Positions 2,930 to 25,812 of a stretch of DNA of 64,000 bases are shown piece by piece. This stretch comes from a bacterium (GTDB taxonomy: Bacteria; Omnitrophota; Gorgyraeia; Zapsychrales; Zapsychraceae). The DNA lies in NCBI GenBank assembly GCA_030429765.1, contig JAUIER010000013.1:8759-72758 (forward strand), given 5' to 3'. The notes beneath the pieces are model-generated. The model was not told the DNA's origin, did not search any database, and saw only the letters and a program-made list of their open reading frames with translations. Position 1 is the stretch's first letter. Each line of letters begins with the position of its first letter. Made by a program: the position numbers and the translations under genes.

Positions 2930-3658
2930 ATGGGTAATAATCCAGACAAAAAACTCACTGTTCCCAAGGGGCAATCCTGGCAGATGTTCAATACCATCTC
3001 AGCCCGGTATGATCTGTTAAACCGATTGCTGTCGCTGGGGCTTGACGTATCCTGGCGAAAGCGTTTGAGTCAATATGTACCCGAACGGCCCGGACTGCGT
3101 CTGCTGGATTTGGCCACCGGAACGGCGGATGTGCTGTTGACGTTGATCAAAGAACGCCCCAATATCGAGAGCGGGTTGGGACTGGATATGGCCGAGAAAA
3201 TGCTTGATGTCGGACGTGTCAAGATTCGTGAGCAGAAGCTCGACGACCGTTTAACGCTGGATGTCGGTGACGCCAATGCCATTCCCGTTGAGGACAGTAG
3301 TTATGACTGCACAACGATGTCCTTCGGCATTCGCAACGTAGAGGATCCGCGGATCGTCATGCGTGAAATGCATCGCGTGCTGAAACCCGGGGGACGGACA
3401 TTAATCCTGGAATTTTCAATGCCCAAGAATCCTGTTATTCGTCTGGGGCATATTTTTTATCTGCGGACGGTGGTCCCGTTGATCGGTTGGCTGGTCAGCG
3501 GTCAGTACAAGGCCTACAAATATCTCAATCAAACCATAGAAGAATTTCCCTACGGCGACGCATTTTGCCGATGGATGACGGACGCCGGGTTCGTTAACGT
3601 CAAGGCCAATCCGTTATTATTCGGGGTCGCCACGATCTATCAGGGAGACCGGGGATGA
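2930..3658 (+). CDS. ubiE: Demethylmenaquinone/ubiquinone C-methyltransferase (class I SAM MTase)
   Basis: UbiE/MenG-like N-terminus (FNTISARYDLLN), an LDLATGTAD SAM motif, and a position at the head of the men operon. Start chosen at the in-frame ATG at 2930. Confidence 0.8.
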   Translation: MGNNPDKKLTVPKGQSWQMFNTISARYDLLNRLLSLGLDVSWRKRLSQYVPERPGLRLLDLATGTADVLLTLIKERPNIESGLGLDMAEKMLDVGRVKIREQKLDDRLTLDVGDANAIPVEDSSYDCTTMSFGIRNVEDPRIVMREMHRVLKPGGRTLILEFSMPKNPVIRLGHIFYLRTVVPLIGWLVSGQYKAYKYLNQTIEEFPYGDAFCRWMTDAGFVNVKANPLLFGVATIYQGDRG

Positions 3659-5037: not shown

Positions 5038-6775
5038 CACTCAGACATCACATCAACTGATGTGGGGACAACTGATCATCGAAGAGTTGATTCGAAACGG
5101 CGTGACCTATTTTTGTCTGTCGCCGGGATCGCGGTCGACACCATTGACTGTGGCGGTGGCGCGTCATCCGCAGGCCCAAACCATGATTCACTTTGACGAG
5201 CGCGCCAGTGCGTTTCACGCCCTGGGATACGCCGCGGCCACGGGACGTCCGGTCGCGGTGATGACCACCTCGGGAACCGCCGTCGCTAATGTGCTGCCCG
5301 CCGTCGTTGAGGCCTCCAAGAAAAAGTTACCACTCATCATCCTCAGCGCTGATCGGCCGCCCGAGCTTCGATCCACCGGCGCGCACCAAACCATAGATCA
5401 GTGTCAGATATTTGGGTCGTATGTCCGCTTTTTTAAAGATGTGCCGGTGCCGACCTCAGATATCCCATCCAGCTATGTGTTAACCACGGTCGATCAGGCC
5501 GTTTTCCGCGCGACGGGAGAATTACGTGGTCCGGTGCATTTAAATTGTATGTATCGTGAGCCGTTGATTGATTCAAACACGCGCTCATCGCGGCAGGTGC
5601 TGGACGCGTCGATTGCCGGATGGTCCAAGACCGACGAACCGTTTACGACATATATCCGATCAGTCACGGCGTTTGATCCCGAAACGGTTAAACCAGTGGC
5701 TCAACGTATGGCCAAGATCAAATCCGGTGTGATTGTGGTTGGAAAGCTTCCAGATGAGGCCAGCGGCCAGGCCGTGATCACGCTGGGCCGGAAATTGGGC
5801 TGGCCGATTCTGCCGGACCTGACCTCGGGATTGCGTTTGAATGTGCGCGACGATCAGCTGATCCCGTATTTTCATCACGCGTTAAAGATGCACGCGCCGC
5901 GTTTTGACGGGGTTCTGCATCTGGGCGGACGTATCACGTCGAAGCATTGGTATCAATGTGCGCAGAAGAATCAGCCAAGCACCTATATCATGGTGTTAGG
6001 CCATCCGTTACGCAACGATCCGCTGCACAATGTGACGCATCGGATCCAGGCGCCGGTCCGTCCGTTTTGTGAAGCGCTGGTCGAACACGTCGATCAACGC
6101 AAAACGTCGATTGAGTGTCAGCGGTTGCAACGGATTAACCGCCGCATCGCGGATGAATTTCAGGAGGAGTTTGAGATCCTGCAGGACGTCACCGAACCAT
6201 CGGTCAGTCGGGCGGTGTCCCAATTGATCCCTGAGGATCACGCGCTGTTCTTGTCCAATAGTCTGCCCATCCGCGAATTCGAGCAATTCGCCGTCACCGA
6301 CGGTCCGAATGTGACTATCGGAGCGAACCGGGGGGCCAGCGGGATCGACGGGATTATTGCATCAGCCGCGGGATTTTCACGGGGGCTGGAGCAGCCGGTC
6401 ACATTGATGTTAGGGGATCTGGCCGGACTATACGATCTCAACGCGCTCGCCCAACTCAAGGCGCTTGATCAGCCGATGACGATTTGTCTGTTTAATAATG
6501 ATGGCGGCGGTATCTTTTCGTTTTTGCCGATTGCCGGGCGAGAAAAATCCTTCGAGAAGTTTTTTGGAACGCCGCATGGCCTGAGCTTTGACAAGGCGGC
6601 CGACATGTTCGGGCTTACGTATGCAGCGCCCCGGACCATGAATGAATTTTGTGAAGTGTATGCCGCGGCCGTGAGAGGCCGGAAGCATACACTGATTGAG
6701 ATCCGGACCAATCGTTCCGAGAATTTTAAATATCAAGAACATCTGTCCCGGCAGATTCAGATCAAAACCAAATAG
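5027..6775 (+). CDS. menD: 2-succinyl-5-enolpyruvyl-6-hydroxy-3-cyclohexene-1-carboxylate synthase (TPP-dependent)
   Basis: N-terminus [28 protein letters not shown] is diagnostic of MenD, and a TPP-binding [10 protein letters not shown] region is present. Start is the ATG at 5027, overlapping the menF end. Confidence 0.85.
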
Positions 6776-6788
6776 GAAGAGAGACTGT

Positions 6789-7616
6789 ATGAGCGAGAAA
6801 CCGATTCAGTGGAAGAAGGCCGGCGATTACTCGGATATCAAATATGACAAGGCCGAAGGCATCGCCAAGATCACCATCAACCGTCCCGAAGTGCGCAATG
6901 CGTTTCGTCCGCAAACAGTGCATCAGATGTCGTCCGCCCTGGCCGACGCCCGCGACGACGAATCCATCGGGGTGATTATCCTGACGGGTGAAGGCGAGCT
7001 GGCGTTTTGTTCCGGCGGTGATCAGAAGATCCGCGGTGAGGCCGGCTACAAAGACAGCGACGGGACCAATCGATTGAACGTGCTGGATTTTCAGCGTCAG
7101 ATGCGCACATGTCCCAAGCCGATCATCGCGATGGTGGCCGGTTACGCCATCGGCGGCGGTCACATCCTGCATATGATGTGTGACCTGACCATCGCCGCGG
7201 ACAACGCGCGGTTTGGTCAGACCGGTCCAAAGGTCGGATCGTTTGACGGCGGCTACGGCGCCAGTTACATGGCCCGGATCATCGGTCAGAAAAAGGCGCG
7301 TGAGATCTGGTTTCTGTGCCGGCAGTATGATGCGCAGCAGGCGCTTGATATGGGGCTGGTCAACACGGTCGTTCCTTACGCCGATCTGGAAAAGGAGACG
7401 GTGCAATGGTGCCGGGAGATCCTGCAGAATTCACCGATAGCGATACGCTGTTTGAAAGCGGCGCTGAATGCCGATTGTGACGGACAGGCCGGCTTGCAGG
7501 AGTTGGCCGGTAACGCGACGATGCTGTTTTATATGAGTGAAGAAGGTCAGGAAGGCCGCAATGCCTTTGTGGAAAAGCGCAAACCCGATTTTTCAAAGTT
7601 TCCCAAACGGCCCTAG
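6789..7616 (+). CDS. menB: 1,4-dihydroxy-2-naphthoyl-CoA synthase (crotonase fold)
   Basis: Strong MenB N-terminus ([28 protein letters not shown]) with AGGAAG RBS spaced before the ATG at 6789. Length is 276 aa. Confidence 0.9.
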
Positions 7617-13100: not shown

Positions 13101-13132
13101 ACCGGTCCTAAATCCCTGAAAATACACACCGT

Positions 13133-13183
13133 CCCGGGAAGAATGCCGATTTTTCCCGGGGCGGGAATATTTTGATTTTTTGT
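13133..13183 (+). terminator. Probable rho-independent terminator after sod
   Basis: 8-bp stem CCCGGGAA/TTCCCGGG followed by T-rich runs. Confidence 0.45.
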
Positions 13184-17989: not shown

Positions 17990-18056
17990 AGAGTTAGTTT
18001 GTTTTTAGTGATTCGAGTTTCGAAGTAAATAGATAAAATGGAAACAGTTTTTAAAA

Positions 18057-18086
18057 GCCTCCGTGTCGATCGCGGAGGCTTTTTTC
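18057..18086 (+). terminator. Rho-independent terminator ending the nrdAB operon
   Basis: GCCTCCG-tgtcgatcg-CGGAGGC stem followed by TTTTTT. Confidence 0.7.
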
Positions 18087-18101
18087 CATGAGGAATCCAA
18101 C

Positions 18102-19160
18102 ATGATGTGTAAAAATTGTGGTTCGCAAAATGATACAAATAACAACCGGTGTGGTAATTGTGGAGAATCATTATCTTCTGATTCGAGAATTGATATTGAA
18201 AGAAAATTGGAAAGATTGCAGGATTTAGGTGATAGTATTGACAAGAGGATAAAATTTTTTGACAAGAACAAGGAACTTATAGAATTAAATATTGATGAAA
18301 GTTTTCGATCAATATTTAAGAAAAAGTATATAAATATAATTGGCCTTATTACTTTCATGTTCACAATTGGTGTCGTGATATTAACAATGTTTGGCTGGAA
18401 TAACTTTAAAAGTTGGTTAAGACTAGAGTCACAAGAATATATTAGACAGTTTGGTCGGGACGAAGTAGAAAAGCAGTTTGAAAGCAAAAATATTCGTGCT
18501 TTGGTAATTGAAGTCGCGGAAGATAAAATAACAAATGAGCTTAGTCCTTCGTTTGAAGATGTAAAAGGGCAGTTAGACGAGAAAGTAAAAGATTTTGACT
18601 TTGATATTAGGGAAGAATTAAGAACTACAAAGAATGATATCAGTAATCAGATTAGAATACTTAAAGAACGTAATGAAGTGGAGGCTTTAGTAGATTTAGC
18701 AATTGTTGAAGGTGACAGAGATGCTTATAATAAAATTAGTAAAGAGATAGAAAGATATTCGGATCACGCAGGTAGTACTACAAATTTCAAAAAGGTACGG
18801 CTTTATGGTTCTGCACTGACTAGAATAAAGTCATTTTATACGTCCGGGCATAGAAGACCTTACTTTAATTTAAATTTTGATCCAAATAGTATTACCGTAA
18901 AAGAATTACTGAAAATTGCTGGTAATGATACTGATTGGGTTAACAGAAGTGCTTCAGTCTATACCCTGGGATTTAAAAAAAATGAGGAAGTTGTTGAAAC
19001 TTTAATAAACGTTTGCAAGAAGGATGCTCGTCTGGATGTTGTTGAGGAGTCCATGACTTCACTGATGAGTTTACTTCAGGTGCAAATGGATGTGTTTGAT
19101 TGTGGCTGGGCTGAGTCATATTGGAGGTTAAATAGGGCGAAGGTTATCGAAAAATGGTAG
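18102..19160 (+). CDS. Hypothetical membrane protein: N-terminal Zn-ribbon (CxxC-X11-CxxC), one TM helix, long coiled-coil region, C-terminal HEAT/PBS-lyase-like repeats
   Basis: Strongly AT-rich gene unlike its flanks. N-terminus MMCKNCGSQNDTNNNRCGNCGE, a TM segment IIGLITFMFTIGVVILTMFGW, a charged coiled-coil, and a C-terminal DTDWVNRSASVYTLG...DARLDVVEESMTSL repeat. The start in the ORF track at 18063 lies inside the nrdB terminator, so the ATG at 18102 with a GAGGA RBS is preferred. Confidence 0.5.
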   Translation: MMCKNCGSQNDTNNNRCGNCGESLSSDSRIDIERKLERLQDLGDSIDKRIKFFDKNKELIELNIDESFRSIFKKKYINIIGLITFMFTIGVVILTMFGWNNFKSWLRLESQEYIRQFGRDEVEKQFESKNIRALVIEVAEDKITNELSPSFEDVKGQLDEKVKDFDFDIREELRTTKNDISNQIRILKERNEVEALVDLAIVEGDRDAYNKISKEIERYSDHAGSTTNFKKVRLYGSALTRIKSFYTSGHRRPYFNLNFDPNSITVKELLKIAGNDTDWVNRSASVYTLGFKKNEEVVETLINVCKKDARLDVVEESMTSLMSLLQVQMDVFDCGWAESYWRLNRAKVIEKW

Positions 19161-19663
19161 TTTTTACTGTCAGAATTATCGATATACTACTCATACAATG
19201 GGCTAAATTAATATGTTTGATTTATTTTCTAGCTCTATGTTTGGCTTTTTCTTCTCTGGCTCACGCCGATGTCAAAGAAGCCGAGCAGTTTTTTCTGAAG
19301 TACCAAGAGTTGTGGAATTCATTCGACATCGAAGCTGCTGATCTATATACGGATAATACTAAATTTTTGGGAAAACGTGTCTATCCTAACGGTGTTGTTC
19401 GATCTATAGATTTGCCAGCTCCGTATCTAAAGGACTTAATTCGAAACACGATGCCCCTGGCACGATTGAAAAATGATAGGACGGAGTATAGTAATGTAAA
19501 GTACGAGATTACAGAGTTAGGTGTCAAAATTTCTGCCGATCGCTATTCGACGATGAAATGCTTTACTGATCCAACATTCTATATCATTATCAAAAAAATT
19601 GATGGAGAGTACAAAATCGTCGAGTCATATGGAACGTCGCAACCGCAGTCGAATTGTCAGTAA
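19154..19663 (+). CDS. Hypothetical secreted protein, NTF2/SnoaL-like fold suspected
   Basis: Second AT-rich gene of the islet. It has a hydrophobic N-terminal signal ending AHA and a roughly 130-aa mature domain. The ATG overlaps the previous stop (ATGGTAG). Confidence 0.45.
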   Translation: MVVFTVRIIDILLIQWAKLICLIYFLALCLAFSSLAHADVKEAEQFFLKYQELWNSFDIEAADLYTDNTKFLGKRVYPNGVVRSIDLPAPYLKDLIRNTMPLARLKNDRTEYSNVKYEITELGVKISADRYSTMKCFTDPTFYIIIKKIDGEYKIVESYGTSQPQSNCQ

Positions 19664-19706
19664 CTGTAATCATTTCTTACAGGAACAGATCTGGTAAAAG
19701 TACAGC

Positions 19707-19871
19707 ATGCGAATCATTATTTATACTTTGCTAGCTATCTTAGCCTTCGTCGTGCTGATCACAGAATTATGGCACTACGATCCAGCAGAACCGGAGATAG
19801 GCGATAGTTATTCATCCGGCTACACCAATGTGATCAAACGGATGGCTCCGCTTGAGGACGAGGGATATTAG
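19707..19871 (+). CDS. Possible 54-aa single-TM micro-protein (missing from the ORF track because of its length)
   Basis: ATG at 19707, then MRIIIYTLLAILAFVVLITELW followed by an acidic tail. No homolog recognised. Confidence 0.25.
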   Translation: MRIIIYTLLAILAFVVLITELWHYDPAEPEIGDSYSSGYTNVIKRMAPLEDEGY

Positions 19872-19881
19872 AGGGCTCAAT

Positions 19882-20754
19882 GTGAAACGCCGCACGCGTA
19901 TTGTTATTTATGTAGGCATAGTACTGATGGTTTATGTCGGCCTGTTGCTGACCAATGTGATACCGTCGATGCTGTGGCGGGGGATTCGCGGGCCTCGGGG
20001 CGACGAACGGCGGATCGTGACGGTCCGGATCGAGTCGGACTATCAGCGTACACCTACCCGGATCAGGATTCTTGCCCCCAAGAATATGGAAGCAGGCCGG
20101 CGTTATCCGGTGTTGTATCTGTTGCCCTCAGTACCGCAGATCCTCGACCCGTGGTGGAACAGTCCGTTGATCGAGATCATCCGCTTCGATGTCGCCGATC
20201 GGCATCAGGTGATCTGTGTCGCGCCGACATACAGCGATATGCCGTGGTACGCCGATCATCCCACCGATCCCAAGATTCGTCAGGAAAGCTATCTGATCAA
20301 GGAGATTATTCCGTATATCGATGCCAATTATCCAACCATGGCCGAAGGGCGGGGGCGGTATCTGCTTGGGTACAGTAAATCCGGAACGGGCGCGTTCACT
20401 CTATTATTGCGGCATCCCGATCTGTTTTATCGGGCGCTCTCATGGGATGCCCCGATGTTCTTTCCGTTCAAGGAAATCCCCGGCTCTCAGCTCACCAAGA
20501 TCTACGGCACGCCGGAAAACTTCCGGCACTATCAATTACCCATCCTGTTCCGCCGGCGTTCTGCCGACTTTACAGGACCCGACCCGCGATTTATACTAAT
20601 GGGGTTCAGCGAGAATCCGATGGCGATCCATCGCGTGCACGAATACATGAACGCGTACAACATCACCCATAAATACGACAACACCACGCAAACCCGTCAC
20701 AACTGGCACAGCGGCTGGTTTGAGCGGGCGATCGGGCACTTATTTGACGAATGA
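19882..20754 (+). CDS. Putative esterase (alpha/beta hydrolase, esterase-D/enterochelin esterase-like), membrane-anchored or secreted
   Basis: PF00756-like pattern (YPVLYLLP ... RYLLGYSKSGTGAF ... SWDAPMF) and an N-terminal hydrophobic segment. The start is uncertain; the track ORF begins at a TTG at 19852. Confidence 0.55.
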   Translation: MKRRTRIVIYVGIVLMVYVGLLLTNVIPSMLWRGIRGPRGDERRIVTVRIESDYQRTPTRIRILAPKNMEAGRRYPVLYLLPSVPQILDPWWNSPLIEIIRFDVADRHQVICVAPTYSDMPWYADHPTDPKIRQESYLIKEIIPYIDANYPTMAEGRGRYLLGYSKSGTGAFTLLLRHPDLFYRALSWDAPMFFPFKEIPGSQLTKIYGTPENFRHYQLPILFRRRSADFTGPDPRFILMGFSENPMAIHRVHEYMNAYNITHKYDNTTQTRHNWHSGWFERAIGHLFDE

Positions 20755-21122
20755 TGGAATCCCAAAAATCACGATATAAGTTATCTATTTTTCTGATCCT
20801 TGGAATGATGACGCTTATACACCCGCAGCCAGCCAAGGCGGCCAATGAATGCATCCGCATCAATAAGAAAGAAAGTATGATCGCGGTGGTCGAGCGGATC
20901 AATCGTCAGCAGACCTGGTTGTATGTGATCAATGAGCAGACCGGCCGGCCGGAACGCTTTTACGCGCCGCGCGGGTATCTGAAAGAACTTGAGCCCGGCG
21001 ACCGTGTAAGGATCTATTACATCTGCGGCAGTCAGACCCTGCTGTCCGTCCGTCACATGACCCCGGTTGAGTTTGATGCCGAGGCGTCGAATCGGGGGTA
21101 TATCATGGGTGGACCCAAATAA
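20751..21122 (+). CDS. Hypothetical small secreted protein
   Basis: Signal-peptide-like N-terminus (LSIFLILGMMTLIHPQPAKA). The start overlaps the esterase stop. Confidence 0.4.
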   Translation: MMESQKSRYKLSIFLILGMMTLIHPQPAKAANECIRINKKESMIAVVERINRQQTWLYVINEQTGRPERFYAPRGYLKELEPGDRVRIYYICGSQTLLSVRHMTPVEFDAEASNRGYIMGGPK

Positions 21123-21150
21123 TGCTGTTAGTATGATATAAAATTAGTAA

Positions 21151-21367
21151 AAGGACCTGGCTTGAGTTAGGCGGAGTCGGGTTGAAGTATTAATTGGAAG
21201 CATAGAAAATAATCGTAGTCATCAATTATGGAAAGGAGGTCGGAGTCGCCTTGAAGCATGTCGACTTTAGCCTTCTAAGATTAACATGAATAAGGACTTT
21301 GCTTGAGATGGGCGGAGTCGCGTTGAGGCATCGCGACTCCTACTGGCGAAAAGCAGAGCTTTTCGCC
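21151..21367 (+). repeat. Three degenerate direct repeats at about 70-nt period (core GGAGTCG-N-TTGAAG/TTGAGG), ending in two adjacent perfect 9-bp-stem hairpins
   Basis: Repeat copies AAGGACcTgGCTTGAGtTaGGCGGAGTCGgGTTGAAG at 21151 and AAGGACtTTGCTTGAGaTgGGCGGAGTCGcGTTGAGG at 21292, with a shorter GGAGTCGCCTTGAAGCATGTCGAC between them. Hairpins GGAGTCGCG-ttgaggcat-CGCGACTCC (21314-21340) and GGCGAAAAG-cagag-CTTTTCGCC (21345-21367). Confidence 0.5.
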
Positions 21368-21433
21368 TTGGAACCTTCAAATATTTTAAAGATCAAGAGC
21401 CTGACGAGTGACTGGTATGACAAGGATATGGTC

Positions 21434-21688
21434 ATGCTGCACGCGTGTTTTCAATTGCTGGAGGACTGTGTCGAACAGGAGAACCTGCTCGACGGATTCA
21501 CCGACTGGGATCAGACCGAGGAGTTTCAGGAGGCCTACAAGGATCTCAAGGAGTTGTACGAGTGGTGGCAGATCCGTAAGCAGTTGATCACCATGGAAAA
21601 GTACGATGAGCTCGAAGAAGAAAACTACGACGAGGACACCCGCCGGCTGCAGCAGCTGATCCGCTGGCGGCATATGCTCTGGACTTAG
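21434..21688 (+). CDS. Hypothetical acidic protein (about 85 aa)
   Basis: An AAGGA RBS sits 7 nt before the ATG at 21434. The longer track ORF (from 21299) would translate through the two strong hairpins, so the shorter start is preferred. Confidence 0.4.
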   Translation: MLHACFQLLEDCVEQENLLDGFTDWDQTEEFQEAYKDLKELYEWWQIRKQLITMEKYDELEEENYDEDTRRLQQLIRWRHMLWT

Positions 21689-21696
21689 TTACAATA

Positions 21697-22218
21697 ATGA
21701 AATCAGATCTAAAGACACAGATCATTGCAATATTTGAAGAACATCGCGAAAAGCCCGAAGACGATTACAATCCCGGGCATTTCCTGGATTTTCTGATGCC
21801 GGACCCGCCAGCGCGGCGGGCGGTGATGAATTCCTTTGCGGGACTCAGACGTTACAATGCCTTTGTCGATGCCGTGCAGGAAGAACGCGGCGTGTATTTT
21901 TCGCAAAAGGACCGCGACGCGCATTACAGTCTGGATGCCTTTTGTGAGCGCGTTAAGGCCCTGCAGAATTCCCCCAAGTCATCCCTTCAATCGCTCAACA
22001 ACGCCCTCAAGCGCCGGCCCAACTGGAATTTTATGATCCTGGTCAATGTGATTGCTCTCAGTATTATCGTCGCCCTACGGCAGCATCCGTTCGTCGCCGC
22101 CGTGCTGGGCCTGATCCTGACCTTTTTCAATTATCGGCTGTACCGGTTTCACCGGCATGAACGTGACTATCTGGTCCGGCTCAATGAACAGATCAAGGCC
22201 GCCGCATCCGGCACATGA
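21697..22218 (+). CDS. Hypothetical membrane protein (two C-terminal TM helices)
   Basis: Hydrophilic N-terminal domain followed by FMILVNVIALSIIVAL and FVAAVLGLILTFF TM segments. Confidence 0.45.
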   Translation: MKSDLKTQIIAIFEEHREKPEDDYNPGHFLDFLMPDPPARRAVMNSFAGLRRYNAFVDAVQEERGVYFSQKDRDAHYSLDAFCERVKALQNSPKSSLQSLNNALKRRPNWNFMILVNVIALSIIVALRQHPFVAAVLGLILTFFNYRLYRFHRHERDYLVRLNEQIKAAASGT

Positions 22219-22315
22219 TTACAAATCTAATTGGGTTTTGTAATTAACAATCCCCCCGCCATCCAGTATAATCAAGAGAAACCAAGTCTGAGACCAATTA
22301 ATCAAAGGAGATCGT

Positions 22316-22630
22316 ATGATCACAACGAGTATTGAATCGGTTCCGGGACGCAAGATCGTGGAACAGTACGGGATCGTGCAGGGAAGTACCGTACGGGCCA
22401 AAAACGTCGGGGTGGACTGTGTGGCCGGCTGTCAGAATACGTTTGGGGGCGAGCTCAAGGGATATTCACAGCTGCTCGAAGAATCGCGGGCCGAGGCGCT
22501 TGATCGCATGATCCAGCAGGCCGAGCAAAAAGGGGCGAATGCGGTGATCAATGTCCGCTTCGGAACGTCAACCATCACCCAGGGCGCGTCCGAGATCCTG
22601 GCCTATGGAACGGCCGTTCTCGTACAATAG
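22316..22630 (+). CDS. YbjQ/UPF0145 (DUF74) family protein
   Basis: 104 aa. SVPGRKIVEQYGIVQGSTVRAKNVG...ANAVINVRF is characteristic of YbjQ. Confidence 0.8.
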   Translation: MITTSIESVPGRKIVEQYGIVQGSTVRAKNVGVDCVAGCQNTFGGELKGYSQLLEESRAEALDRMIQQAEQKGANAVINVRFGTSTITQGASEILAYGTAVLVQ

Positions 22631-22639
22631 GAGGTCCGG

Positions 22640-23104
22640 ATGGAAAATTTAATTGGACTGATTTTCACCGTCGGGCTGATCGTTGTCGCATACTTTGTGG
22701 GCAAGACGATTGAGAACCGGCACTTTGAGGCGCTGAAGGCGCGCGAGCGTGAATTTCTGGATCTGCCGAGCCTCACGACGCAGCATTCGTATGACGAGGA
22801 AGGCATACAGGACTGCCGTCTGGTCTACGGGAATGTGGTGATCTCCGGCGACTATTTCAAAATGGTGCTCGCGGCGCTGTTGAAATTTTTTGGCGGGCGC
22901 ATTGTTGGATATGAATCGTTGATTGACCGGGCCCGTCGGGAGGCGATCCTGCGCATGCAGGCGGAGGCCAGGCAGTTCGGCGCGGACGCGGTGATCAACA
23001 CCCGTTTTGAGATGAGCAAACTCGATGCCATGACGCAGAATCAGGGAACCGGCATGTTTGAGATCCTGGTGTACGGCACGGCGATTAAGGTCAATCATGG
23101 CTAA
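22640..23104 (+). CDS. YbjQ/UPF0145-like protein with N-terminal TM anchor
   Basis: TM segment LIGLIFTVGLIVVAYFV followed by a YbjQ-like core (ADAVINTRFE...ILVYGTAIKV). Confidence 0.7.
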   Translation: MENLIGLIFTVGLIVVAYFVGKTIENRHFEALKAREREFLDLPSLTTQHSYDEEGIQDCRLVYGNVVISGDYFKMVLAALLKFFGGRIVGYESLIDRARREAILRMQAEARQFGADAVINTRFEMSKLDAMTQNQGTGMFEILVYGTAIKVNHG

Positions 23105-23996
23105 GTATGTCCCCCGCGAGACAACCGATAATGTCAACGTGTCGCGTGACAATCCGCTCGGTGTTTTTATCAAGGCCCTGATCGGGTTATCCGCGCTGAT
23201 GGCGATCACCTTTGTGGTGCTGGTGACATTGTCGGAGGTGTTTATCCGGTTTATGCCGGAGCGGGTCAATTTTGCCCTGGCCAAGATTATCTCTGAGAGA
23301 ATCGATACGCCGGAGCATCTCGAGGCGGAGCGTGAACGCATTCAGCAGATCCTCAATCAGGCGCTGGCGCAGACACGCTTCGAGGGCGATGAGTTCCGGC
23401 TGGAAATCCTTGAGACCGACGAGAAAAACGCGATGGCCTTTCCCGGGCGGACGATCGCGATCACCACGGAATTGCTCAAAGAATTAAAGTATGAAAACGA
23501 ATTGGTGATGATCCTCGGGCATGAGATCGGTCATTATCACAACAATGATCATCTGCGCTCCATGAGCCGGGCCGGCATCCTGATGGGGCTGGTGGGGTTG
23601 CTTGAGATCGGCGGGGCGGGCAGCGCGTCGAGTGTGATCAGCGGCACGACCAATCTGTTTTTCGGCCAGTATTCCCGGCATCAGGAGACCATGGCCGATG
23701 AATTTGGTCTGACGGTGCTGGATCAATACTACGGTCATGTCGACGGCGCCGTCAATACGTTTGAGGTGTTACGACAGGCCAACGAAAAAATGCTGACGCT
23801 GAACGGAATCCTGTCGACGCATCCGATCACCGATCAGCGGATGGAGCATTTAGAAAAATTGATTACGCAAATGGAATTGACGGATGAATCCGACGGATTG
23901 ATCCCGTTTGAGTTTAACCCCGAACCGCCTGACGATGAGGAGCCGGAAGATGACAGCGACGATGAAGAGCGTTCAGCCGACGATCAAACCGCTTAA
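23097..23996 (+). CDS. M48-family Zn metallopeptidase (HtpX/Ste24-like), membrane-anchored, acidic C-terminal tail
   Basis: HEIGH motif (LGHEIGHYHNND), a downstream ETMADEFG, and one N-terminal TM segment. The start overlaps the YbjQ-2 stop by 8 nt. Confidence 0.8.
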   Translation: MAKYVPRETTDNVNVSRDNPLGVFIKALIGLSALMAITFVVLVTLSEVFIRFMPERVNFALAKIISERIDTPEHLEAERERIQQILNQALAQTRFEGDEFRLEILETDEKNAMAFPGRTIAITTELLKELKYENELVMILGHEIGHYHNNDHLRSMSRAGILMGLVGLLEIGGAGSASSVISGTTNLFFGQYSRHQETMADEFGLTVLDQYYGHVDGAVNTFEVLRQANEKMLTLNGILSTHPITDQRMEHLEKLITQMELTDESDGLIPFEFNPEPPDDEEPEDDSDDEERSADDQTA

Positions 23997-25761: not shown

Positions 25762-25782
25762 CACGCGCTGAATTGATTGACA

Positions 25783-25812
25783 GGGCCTCCAGGGATGGAG
25801 GCCCTTTTTTGT
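25783..25812 (+). terminator. Rho-independent terminator
   Basis: GGGCCTCC-agggat-GGAGGCCC followed by TTTTTT. Confidence 0.75.

What the first reader, a model, noticed from the sequence alone, without database searches (positions are those of the whole stretch)
21123..21433. 300-nt leader with three roughly 70-nt-periodic direct repeats ending in twin perfect 9-bp hairpins
Between a small secreted-protein gene and a short acidic-protein gene there are three copies of a motif centred on GGAGTCG(N)(C/G)TTGA(A/G)G at a spacing of about 69 and 72 nt. The first and third copies share a roughly 37-nt block at about 85% identity. The third copy itself forms GGAGTCGCG-N9-CGCGACTCC and is followed 4 nt later by GGCGAAAAG-cagag-CTTTTCGCC. 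Neither hairpin is followed by a U-tract, so they are unlikely to be simple intrinsic terminators. The annotated long ORF would have to be translated through both stems, which argues the region is untranslated RNA, such as an sRNA, a riboswitch-like or protein-binding leader, or iterated operator sites.
Basis: seen in the sequence. Interest (0 to 1): 0.55.

Follow-up and report, generated by a model that had tools for sequence, protein, structure and literature searches.

The report
Triplicated hairpin leader before cassette-type gene
The three repeats and two hairpins are real, but they are a local triplication of one short structured mRNA leader whose constant core looks like a hidden ribosome-binding site plus start codon, seen in only two genomes, so it is a modest curiosity.

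Summary
The core CGGAGTC-N3-TTGARG-YAT occurs at 21172, 21241 and 21313 (spacing 69 and 72 nt). A 40-nt block is shared by copies 1 and 3 at 83% identity. Perfect hairpins lie at 21314-21340 and 21345-21367, neither followed by a U-tract.

The repeats occur only here. There is no Rfam match, no other copy in the window, and no real match in species-representative genomes, JGI metagenomes or IMG/VR.

The one close relative (L003, syntenic) has a single unit, so copies 1 and 2 are lineage-specific duplications. The proximal unit is 80% identical against 64% at four-fold sites. Its substitutions keep pairing only on the + strand.

The downstream gene belongs to a family found as integron cassettes. 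By homology it starts at TTG 21368, with no Shine-Dalgarno sequence, so the 129-aa ORF from 21299 is over-extended.

The invariant core is GGAG, 5 nt, then UUG, the SD-to-start spacing this genome uses. In every copy a local hairpin buries the GGAG. Copy 3's UUG is in frame with the gene. In L003 the short ORF ends in a UUGA overlap with an in-frame start.

Best reading (about 0.4): a masked leader initiation site feeds an SD-less gene, analogous to attI1 ORF-11. Interest is low to moderate.

The parts
21110..21137 (+). Weak sigma-70-like promoter (TGGACC-16-TATGAT) overlapping the stop codon of the upstream gene. It would place a transcription start just before copy 1.
   Evidence: 9 of 12 matches. 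This is a consensus match only, and L003 has no scoring counterpart.
21151..21190 (+). Repeat unit 1 (U1). It contains GGAG at 21173-21176 and UUG at 21182-21184. A local hairpin pairs 21154-21163 with 21174-21183. The short frame reads M-K-Y-stop.
   Evidence: -12.7 kcal/mol, z -2.75. Absent from relative L003.
21234..21276 (+). Repeat unit 2 (U2). It carries a strong SD, AGGAGG (21234-21239), plus GGAG (21242-21245) and UUG (21251-21253). Both SDs are paired with pyrimidine-rich GCCUUCU and CGACUUU in a 14-bp hairpin. The short frame encodes 12 codons ending at TGA 21287.
   Evidence: -17.7 kcal/mol, z -2.45. Absent from L003.
21292..21331 (+). Repeat unit 3 (U3), the only copy with an orthologue in L003. 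It contains GGAG at 21314-21317 and UUG at 21323-21325, in frame with the downstream gene.
21314..21340 (+). Hairpin P2 (GGAGUCGCG / CGCGACUCC). The 5' arm is the SD, the 3' arm CUCC resembles an anti-SD, and the UUG sits in the loop. The lower 6 bp are kept in U2 and L003 through G.U changes.
21345..21367 (+). Hairpin P3 (10 bp, 3-nt loop), ending 1 nt before TTG 21368. It is only weakly preserved in L003: 7 of 9 comparable pairs, three of them G.U and one compensatory.
21297..21358 (+). Alternative long-range helix P1 (21297-21304 with 21351-21358). It encloses P2 and excludes P3. It is the preferred fold in L003.
   Evidence: (window -36.3 with P1 against -39.5 with P3; L003 -25.4 against -17.2).
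21368..21688 (+). Downstream gene as defined by homology: 106 aa, TTG start, no SD in the 18 nt upstream. It is a three-helix-bundle protein of unknown function, from a family found in integron cassettes and next to HEPN/AAA_15 genes.
20751..21122 (+). Upstream 123-aa gene with a signal-peptide-like N-terminus. It is syntenic in L003 but only 63% identical at the DNA level.

Best explanation
The region is the transcribed 5' leader (or intercistronic spacer) of the mRNA for a small, cassette-type gene whose own start (TTG 21368, GTG in the relative) has no Shine-Dalgarno sequence.

The functional unit is one roughly 75-nt module. Its invariant core is a miniature translation-initiation region, GGAG, 5 nt, then UUG, and its GGAG is masked by pairing with a CUCC-type anti-SD mimic (hairpin P2, extended by P1). 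When that hairpin opens, ribosomes load at this upstream site and are delivered to the SD-less gene. In this genome delivery is by in-frame read-through from UUG 21323, giving a 15-residue N-terminal extension. In the relative it is by a 7-codon leader ORF whose stop overlaps an in-frame UUG (UUGA), 24 nt upstream of the GTG.

Copies 1 and 2 are lineage-specific tandem duplications of the core, each again folded so that its GGAG is buried. They may add ribosome-loading or decoy sites, or they may be neutral.

Shown: the repeats, the hairpins, the single copy in the relative, above-neutral conservation of the proximal unit, + strand-compatible substitutions, SD usage and spacing in this genome, and the reading-frame relations. 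Inferred: transcription, use of the UUGs, coupling, and any regulatory trigger.
For: 1. The columns invariant across all four copies (three here plus L003) are exactly CGGAGTC, TTGA, G and AT, while the 3-nt spacer varies.
2. This genome uses SDs: 22 of 52 first-ATG starts carry an SD core against a 9.5% background, and GGAG-to-start spacing is 5-8 nt.
3. The main start has no SD and is TTG here and GTG in L003, whereas other family members use ATG.
4. UUG 21323 is in frame with the gene and no stop intervenes. In L003 the ORF from UUG 936 ends at TGA 957-959, overlapping the in-frame TTG 956.
5. Each unit folds locally and buries its GGAG.
6. The lower 6 bp of P2, which is the SD:anti-SD pairing, are kept in U2, U3 and L003 through C-to-U changes that give G.U pairs on the + strand only. 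There is also one compensatory flip.
7. The P1-P2 core is 80% identical between the two genomes against 64% at pooled four-fold sites (P about 0.007) and 45-50% in the two adjacent genes.
8. There is a precedent: short ORFs with a GGAG initiation region (ORF-11, -17 and -18 in attI1) drive translation of cassette genes that lack an initiation region, and there the peptide sequence is unimportant (PMC8876359). This gene's family is cassette-borne.
Against: Only two genomes carry the element, so all comparative statistics are weak. The shuffle controls for covariation are not significant (170/500 and 92/500).

The delivery mechanism differs between the two genomes (fusion against stop-start overlap). 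That could equally mean neither is selected.

The leader peptide is not conserved, and the substitutions are not enriched at third codon positions.

P2 is very stable (-18 kcal/mol), so the masked site might simply be inactive. The perfect hairpin P3 has no role in this model. No transcript, ribosome or protein data exist. The SD-plus-start reading was noticed post hoc.
Confidence: 0.4

Rival explanations
1. An untranslated structured leader (riboregulator). P1 and P3 are mutually exclusive helices. P3 occludes the region immediately 5' of the SD-less start TTG 21368, and some trigger (temperature, a protein or a ligand) shifts the balance towards P1. On this view the GGAG-UUG coincidence has no meaning.
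For: P3 ends 1 nt before the start codon, and the 18 nt upstream of the start are predicted to be almost fully paired apart from the 3-nt loop. The P1 alternative is only 3.2 kcal/mol above the minimum free energy here and is the preferred fold in L003. Both helices can be drawn in both genomes, with G.U changes and one compensatory change. The leader frame is broken in L003.
Against: The balance is opposite in the two genomes: P3 is strongly favoured here and P1 strongly favoured in L003, so a conserved switch is doubtful. The P3 segment is no more conserved than neutral sites (64%). There is no Rfam match. This model does not explain why the SD-like GGAG and the UUG are the invariant positions in all copies.
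Confidence: 0.25
2. Functionless by-product. Replication slippage duplicated a piece of intergenic DNA, and the hairpins and motifs are incidental.
For: Two of the three copies are missing from the only close relative. The element occurs nowhere else. The locus evolves quickly, with the upstream gene only 63% identical.
Against: The proximal unit is more conserved than four-fold degenerate sites. Stem substitutions are biased towards changes that keep pairing on one strand. The duplicated cores are recognisable while the sequence between them is not.
Confidence: 0.15
3. DNA-level sites. The 9-N9-9 palindrome and its half-site copies are operators for a dimeric regulator, that is, iterated operator sites.
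For: There are perfect palindromes just upstream of a gene, and the half-site GGAGTCG is repeated three times.
Against: The relative has one copy, and its palindrome is degraded in a way that keeps RNA G.U pairing but breaks DNA symmetry. The 69- and 72-bp spacings are not helically phased. No further sites exist in 64 kb. No regulator gene is adjacent.
Confidence: 0.1
4. A relic of mobile-element or array DNA, either a degenerate integron attC site or a decayed CRISPR-like mini-array.
For: The gene family is cassette-borne, with true attC sites directly upstream of homologues. The 69-72-nt period and 29-40-nt repeats are CRISPR-like in size.
Against: No R'' (RYYYAAC) or R' (GTTRRRY) boxes flank the palindromes, and there is no attC after the gene: only 8 nt separate it from the next ORF. 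The repeats are only 83% alike. The relative has a single copy. The neighbours are housekeeping and hypothetical genes with no cas or integrase among those scanned.
Confidence: 0.05
5. An independent small RNA (for example a CsrA-sponge type), or a terminator for the upstream gene.
For: There are nine GGA triplets in 258 nt, and the region is structured.
Against: The GGA excess is modest (9 against 5.2 expected), and most triplets lie in stems rather than loops. There is no U-tract terminator, although the genome uses canonical ones. Rfam is negative.
Confidence: 0.05

Closest known systems
attI1 leader ORFs (ORF-11, ORF-17, ORF-18) of class 1 integrons, which act by translational coupling on cassette genes that lack an initiation region (review PMC8876359)
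   Same: A very short ORF with a canonical GGAG initiation region lies a few to a few tens of nt upstream of a gene with no SD of its own, or fused to it. What matters is the initiation region rather than the peptide. The downstream gene here belongs to a family that is itself cassette-borne.
   Different: This element is not in an attI site or any integron. The start codon is UUG rather than AUG. The SD is buried in a stable hairpin. The module is triplicated. Use of the ORF is untested.
SD-sequestering leaders: translation-attenuation leaders of erm, cat and aac/aad genes, and RNA thermometers of the ROSE or fourU type
   Same: A hairpin pairs a GGAG with a pyrimidine-rich anti-SD mimic, a short leader frame is present, and alternative helices (P1 and P3) can be drawn.
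   Different: The main gene has no SD to sequester. There is no recognisable stalling peptide and no ROSE or fourU motif. No Rfam model matches. The preferred fold differs between the two genomes.
Integron attC sites
   Same: They are imperfect palindromes immediately upstream of homologues of this gene (L001, L010), and they are known to affect translation of the next cassette.
   Different: The R'' and R' core boxes are absent. There is no array and no attC downstream of the gene. The repeats are direct copies of a half-structure.
GGA-repeat sponge RNAs (CsrB, RsmY, RsmZ)
   Same: They carry repeated GGA-containing hairpins.
   Different: Here the GGA triplets sit in stems, there is no terminator, no Rfam model matches, and the relative has a single unit.

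Membership tests
Any Rfam 15 family (riboswitches, thermometers, sRNAs, leaders) | Covariance-model score at or above the family's gathering threshold | tested here: not met
   There are no hits in the whole window at gathering thresholds. In 20900-21700 at E up to 10, the only hits are two chance matches outside the repeats.
Integron attC site | Inverse core R'' (RYYYAAC) and core R' (GTTRRRY) flanking an imperfect palindrome with paired L'' and L' | tested here: not met
   No AAC...GTT boxes flank any of the hairpins in the window or in L003. Genuine attC sites in L001 and L010 show what is expected.
Integron attC site | One site at the 3' end of each cassette, within an array of co-oriented ORFs | tested here: not met
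   Only 8 nt separate the gene from the next ORF. The spacer at 22219-22315 has no such repeat. No repeat family is shared between the local intergenic regions.
Integron attC site | Integron integrase (IntI) in the vicinity | not tested
   Only the ORFs between 8357 and 25362 were scanned against Pfam, and none is an integrase. The rest of the window and the rest of the genome were not examined.
Intrinsic (Rho-independent) terminator | G+C-rich stem-loop followed directly by a U-tract | tested here: not met
   The terminator scan does not report 21314-21367. Canonical examples occur at 18058-18090, 13129-13164 and 25782-25805.
CsrB/RsmY/RsmZ-type sponge RNA | Many GGA motifs exposed in hairpin loops or single-stranded linkers, ending in a terminator | tested here: not met
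   There are 9 GGA triplets against 5.2 expected. The repeated ones lie in stems. There is no terminator and no Rfam hit.
CRISPR array | Near-identical repeats separated by unique spacers, usually with cas genes | tested here: not met
   The repeats are 83% identical. The close relative has one copy. The neighbours are RNR, SOD, redoxin, esterase, YbjQ and M48 genes.
Leader-ORF translational coupling element (analogous to attI1 ORF-11) | Canonical initiation region (SD, 5-9 nt, start codon) upstream of a gene that lacks one | tested here: met
   GGAG-5 nt-TTG is present in all three copies and in L003. The spacing matches this genome's own usage. There is no SD before TTG 21368 or GTG L003:980.
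Leader-ORF translational coupling element (analogous to attI1 ORF-11) | The short ORF ends at or near the main start, or is fused to it | tested here: met
   In the window, UUG 21323 is in frame with the gene and no stop intervenes. In L003, TGA 957-959 overlaps the in-frame TTG 956, 24 nt before the GTG.
Leader-ORF translational coupling element (analogous to attI1 ORF-11) | Translation of the short ORF is required for expression of the downstream gene | not testable with these tools
   This needs reporter fusions, toeprinting or ribosome profiling.
attI1 ORF-11 itself | Located in the attI1 site of a class 1 integron | tested here: not met
   The chromosomal context shows no integron features. 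The resemblance is a functional analogy only.

The most novel reading that the evidence does not exclude
A previously undescribed kind of translational control module. On this reading, tandem hairpin-masked SD-UUG units act as graded ribosome-loading or decoy sites, possibly chained by NUGA stop-start overlaps. The module would have evolved to express a promoterless integron-cassette gene with no initiation region of its own, after that gene became fixed in a chromosome.
Probability: 0.12. Interest if true: 0.45.

Novelty: new member of a known kind. Interest (0 to 1): 0.3.

Why it matters
If the masked GGAG-UUG module really drives the SD-less gene, it would show how a cassette-type gene acquires its own expression signals once it is outside an integron. 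It would also be a natural example of copy-number change in a leader element between close relatives. In practical terms, it corrects the annotated start of the gene: the 126- and 129-aa models are not supported by homology. Because the element is confined to two metagenome-derived genomes and has no experimental data, its wider importance is limited.

Tried and rejected
- **Rfam.** Gathering thresholds on the whole window and a permissive local scan found nothing relevant.
- **Dispersed repeat or regulon site.** No further copies occur in the 64-kb window.
- **Public collections.** Two degenerate patterns gave 0 hits in 185,579 species-representative genomes and 0 in IMG/VR. JGI metagenomes gave 1 hit, inside a DEAD-box helicase coding region, which is chance.
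- **CcrM/GANTC methylation cluster.** GANTC is not depleted genome-wide (252 observed, 249 expected), so this was rejected.
- **CsrA sponge.** The GGA excess is weak and the triplets lie in stems.
- **attC relic and CRISPR mini-array.** The defining features are absent.
- **Coding on either strand.** The minus-strand ORFs put the copies in different frames. The plus-strand frame is interrupted by stops between copies and is broken in L003.
- **Alternative sigma-factor promoters (sigma-54, sigma-32, ECF).** Inspected by eye only; no consistent spacing or -10 element across the copies.
- **Synteny in more distant relatives.** The esterase homologues in Omnitrophica-labelled genomes (54-56% identity) have different neighbours.
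- **Function of the 106-aa protein.** There are no Pfam, NCBIfam, PADLOC or PHROGs hits. The AlphaFold model is a generic three-helix bundle (pLDDT 83) with no specific PDB neighbour. The afdb50 library was unavailable.
- **Organism name.** The window's own proteins are singletons without a source name.

Full report
**1.
The 245-nt spacer between the stop of the 123-aa gene (21122) and TTG 21368 contains three + strand copies of CGGAGTC-N3-TTGARG-YAT, at 21172-21190, 21241-21259 and 21313-21331. Their spacing is 69 and 72 nt. An 18-nt consensus with up to 3 mismatches finds 4 sites in 64 kb against 0.45 expected, and three of them are here.

Copies 1 and 3 share a 40-nt block at 83% identity. 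Copies 2 and 3 share 29 nt at 83%. Copy 3 forms GGAGTCGCG-N9-CGCGACTCC (21314-21340, -18.1 kcal/mol). Four nt later lies a perfect 10-bp hairpin (21345-21367, -15.5 kcal/mol). Neither hairpin has a U-tract.

Copies 1 and 2 also fold into local hairpins, at -12.7 and -17.7 kcal/mol. The whole leader folds better than shuffled sequence on both strands, with z -2.5 on + and -3.0 on -.

**2. What it is not.**
- Rfam gives nothing, either at gathering thresholds for the whole window or permissively for the region.
- The motif is not dispersed within the window.
- Degenerate patterns that cover the window and the relative's copies found nothing in the species-representative genome collection or in IMG/VR. 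The single hit in JGI metagenomes lies inside a DEAD-box helicase coding region, so it is chance.
- GANTC is not depleted in this genome, which rules out a methylation-site cluster.
- The GGA excess is small (9 against 5.2 expected).
- The neighbouring genes encode RNR, SOD, redoxin, an esterase, two YbjQ paralogues and an M48 peptidase. None is a cas gene or an integrase.
- The genome has good sigma-70-type promoters and canonical T-tract terminators elsewhere, so the twin hairpins are not this organism's kind of terminator.

**3. The downstream gene and its true start.**
The 129-aa ORF from 21299 has 30 homologues. All but the two nearly identical entries are 92-123 aa long and cover only about 80% of the query. 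They begin M-E/K/D-P-x-N-I/L-L-K-I, which aligns with TTG 21368. The homology-defined protein is therefore 106 aa (21368-21688), and hairpin P3 ends one base before its start.

The family has no Pfam, NCBIfam, PADLOC or PHROGs match. The AlphaFold model (pLDDT 83) is a generic three-helix bundle.

The genomic contexts of the homologues are those of mobile small genes:
- an unmistakable integron cassette array with more than 10 attC sites in L001
- attC-flanked cassettes in Alcanivorax sediminis, L010
- a position next to an integrase fragment in L011
- a conserved position between a HEPN gene and AAA_15/21 ATPase genes in L002, L004 and L005

None of these loci has the window's leader.

**4. 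The only close relative has one unit.**
L003 is a 1,527-nt Logan contig that is syntenic with the window: esterase 3' end, small secreted protein, spacer, 106-aa gene (94% amino-acid identity), then the 173-aa gene. Its spacer is 101 nt, against 245 nt here, and holds a single unit that aligns with copy 3.

Copy 1 is closer to copy 3 (83%) than L003's unit is (about 75%). Copies 1 and 2 therefore arose by duplication in the window's lineage after the split, or they have been homogenised since.

**5. The proximal unit is under constraint, and the constraint looks RNA-like on the + strand.**
Between the two genomes the P1-P2 core is 80% identical (47 of 59 positions). Four-fold degenerate sites pooled over three flanking genes are 64% identical (P about 0.007). 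In the two genes immediately downstream of the leader the figure is 45-50%. The P3 segment is not above the neutral level (64%).

I counted pairs across U2, U3 and L003. About 90% of cells pair, against 35-55% when the partners are slid. Seven one-sided changes give G.U or U.G pairs that exist only on the + strand, two changes are compensatory, and six cells are broken. With three sequences the shuffle controls are not significant (170/500 and 92/500), so this is supportive evidence and not proof.

The fold is not identical in the two genomes. L003 prefers one long hairpin, P1+P2 (-22 to -25 kcal/mol). The window prefers P2+P3, with the P1 alternative 3.2 kcal/mol higher.

**6. The invariant core reads as a masked initiation site.**
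Across all four copies the invariant columns are CGGAGTC, TTGA, G and AT, and the three bases between them vary. This amounts to GGAG, a 5-nt spacer and UUG.

The genome uses Shine-Dalgarno sequences: 22 of 52 first-ATG starts have an SD core against a 9.5% background, and GGAG-to-start spacing is 5-8 nt. An example is GGAGATCGT-ATG at 22316. The homology-defined start has no SD and is TTG here and GTG in L003, whereas the other family members examined use ATG.

In every copy the GGAG is paired with a pyrimidine-rich segment:
- CUCC in U3
- CUUU plus CCUUCU in U2, which also carries a full AGGAGG
- GGCUU in U1

The conserved lower six base pairs of P2 are exactly this SD:anti-SD pairing.

All three copies lie in one reading frame. 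U1 encodes M-K-Y-stop and U2 encodes 12 codons. U3's UUG 21323 runs without a stop into the gene, adding a 15-residue extension. In L003 the corresponding UUG 936 opens a 7-codon frame. Its stop, TGA 957-959, overlaps an in-frame TTG 956 (UUGA), 24 nt upstream of the GTG.

In both genomes, then, ribosomes loaded at the repeat's SD can reach the SD-less gene, by different routes. The peptide is not conserved. That matches the integron precedent, in which the attI1 leader ORFs (ORF-11, -17 and -18) enhance translation of cassettes that lack an initiation region, and in which the initiation region rather than the peptide sequence is what matters (PMC8876359).

**7. Verdict.**
My best explanation (about 0.4) is a cis-acting structured leader whose unit is a hairpin-masked SD-UUG module serving an SD-less, cassette-derived gene. 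The module has been triplicated in this lineage.

The main rival (about 0.25) is an untranslated P1/P3 switch. The remaining probability goes to neutral duplication, DNA operators, a mobile-element relic, and an sRNA or terminator.

The two leading models make opposite predictions for point mutants at 21314-21325 and at 21368, and for the N-terminus of the protein. I cannot file the element under any named family. It is an analogue, not a member, of the attI1 leader-ORF system.

The element is real and probably functional, but it is confined to two genomes, so interest is low to moderate.

Noticed in passing
window 18000-19870: A low-GC island (32-42% GC against about 52% elsewhere, GC skew 0.33) sits directly after the canonical terminator of the RNR operon (18058-18090). 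It encodes a 365-aa protein with weak, sub-threshold zinc-ribbon and HEAT-repeat matches, a 169-aa secreted protein and a 54-aa ORF. It is probably horizontally acquired.
   Followed up: partly
window 21251-21326: There is a relay of -1 overlapping stop-start signals (NTGA). The U2 frame (TTG 21251) stops at TGA 21287, overlapping ATG 21286. That frame stops at TGA 21304, overlapping TTG 21303. That frame in turn stops at TGA 21324, overlapping the U3 start TTG 21323. Chains this deep occur at about 0.5% of start triplets in the window. The chain is not conserved in L003.
   Followed up: partly
window 21299-21315 and 23598-23614: A 17-nt stretch of the leader (TTGCTTGAGATGGGCGG) recurs with 16 of 17 matches inside the M48 peptidase gene. 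Similarity fades beyond this stretch. It may be chance or a trace of the leader's origin.
   Followed up: partly
window 21375-21394 and 21720-21739: A 20-nt inverted repeat (85% complementary) links the first codons of the 106-aa gene with the first codons of the next gene (173 aa). This could be a long-range RNA pairing between the two start regions.
   Followed up: no
whole window: GATC is about 2.7-fold over-represented: 676 sites against roughly 250 expected from composition. CTNAG and AGNCT are strongly depleted, at 85 and 77 sites.
   Followed up: no
L001 1-8324: This locus is part of a 750-kb metagenomic contig and carries a large sedentary integron array with at least 13 attC sites of one family. 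It includes a 300-nt stretch present twice at 100% identity (2975-3274 and 6583-6882) and cassettes for Barstar, DUF4262 and DUF7674 proteins.
   Followed up: partly
L002 2821-5077; L004 1347-4134; L005 43-2830: In three unrelated contigs the 106-aa family member sits in the same place, between a HEPN (MAE_28990/RiboL-PSP) gene and AAA_15/AAA_21 ATPase genes. In L002 this is next to GmrSD genes. The arrangement suggests the protein is an accessory part of a defence-type module.
   Followed up: no
L006 3-466; L007 3-466; L008 1-467: In these contigs the family member overlaps the stop of an upstream 47-48-aa ORF (ATGA) and lies beside haem-biosynthesis genes. This is another case where the gene seems to rely on translational coupling rather than its own SD.
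   Followed up: no
window 22316-23104: Two YbjQ-family paralogues lie in tandem, followed by an M48 peptidase gene. They are preceded by the best sigma-70-like promoter in the area (TTAACA-17-TATAAT, 22244-22272) and a strong SD.
   Followed up: no
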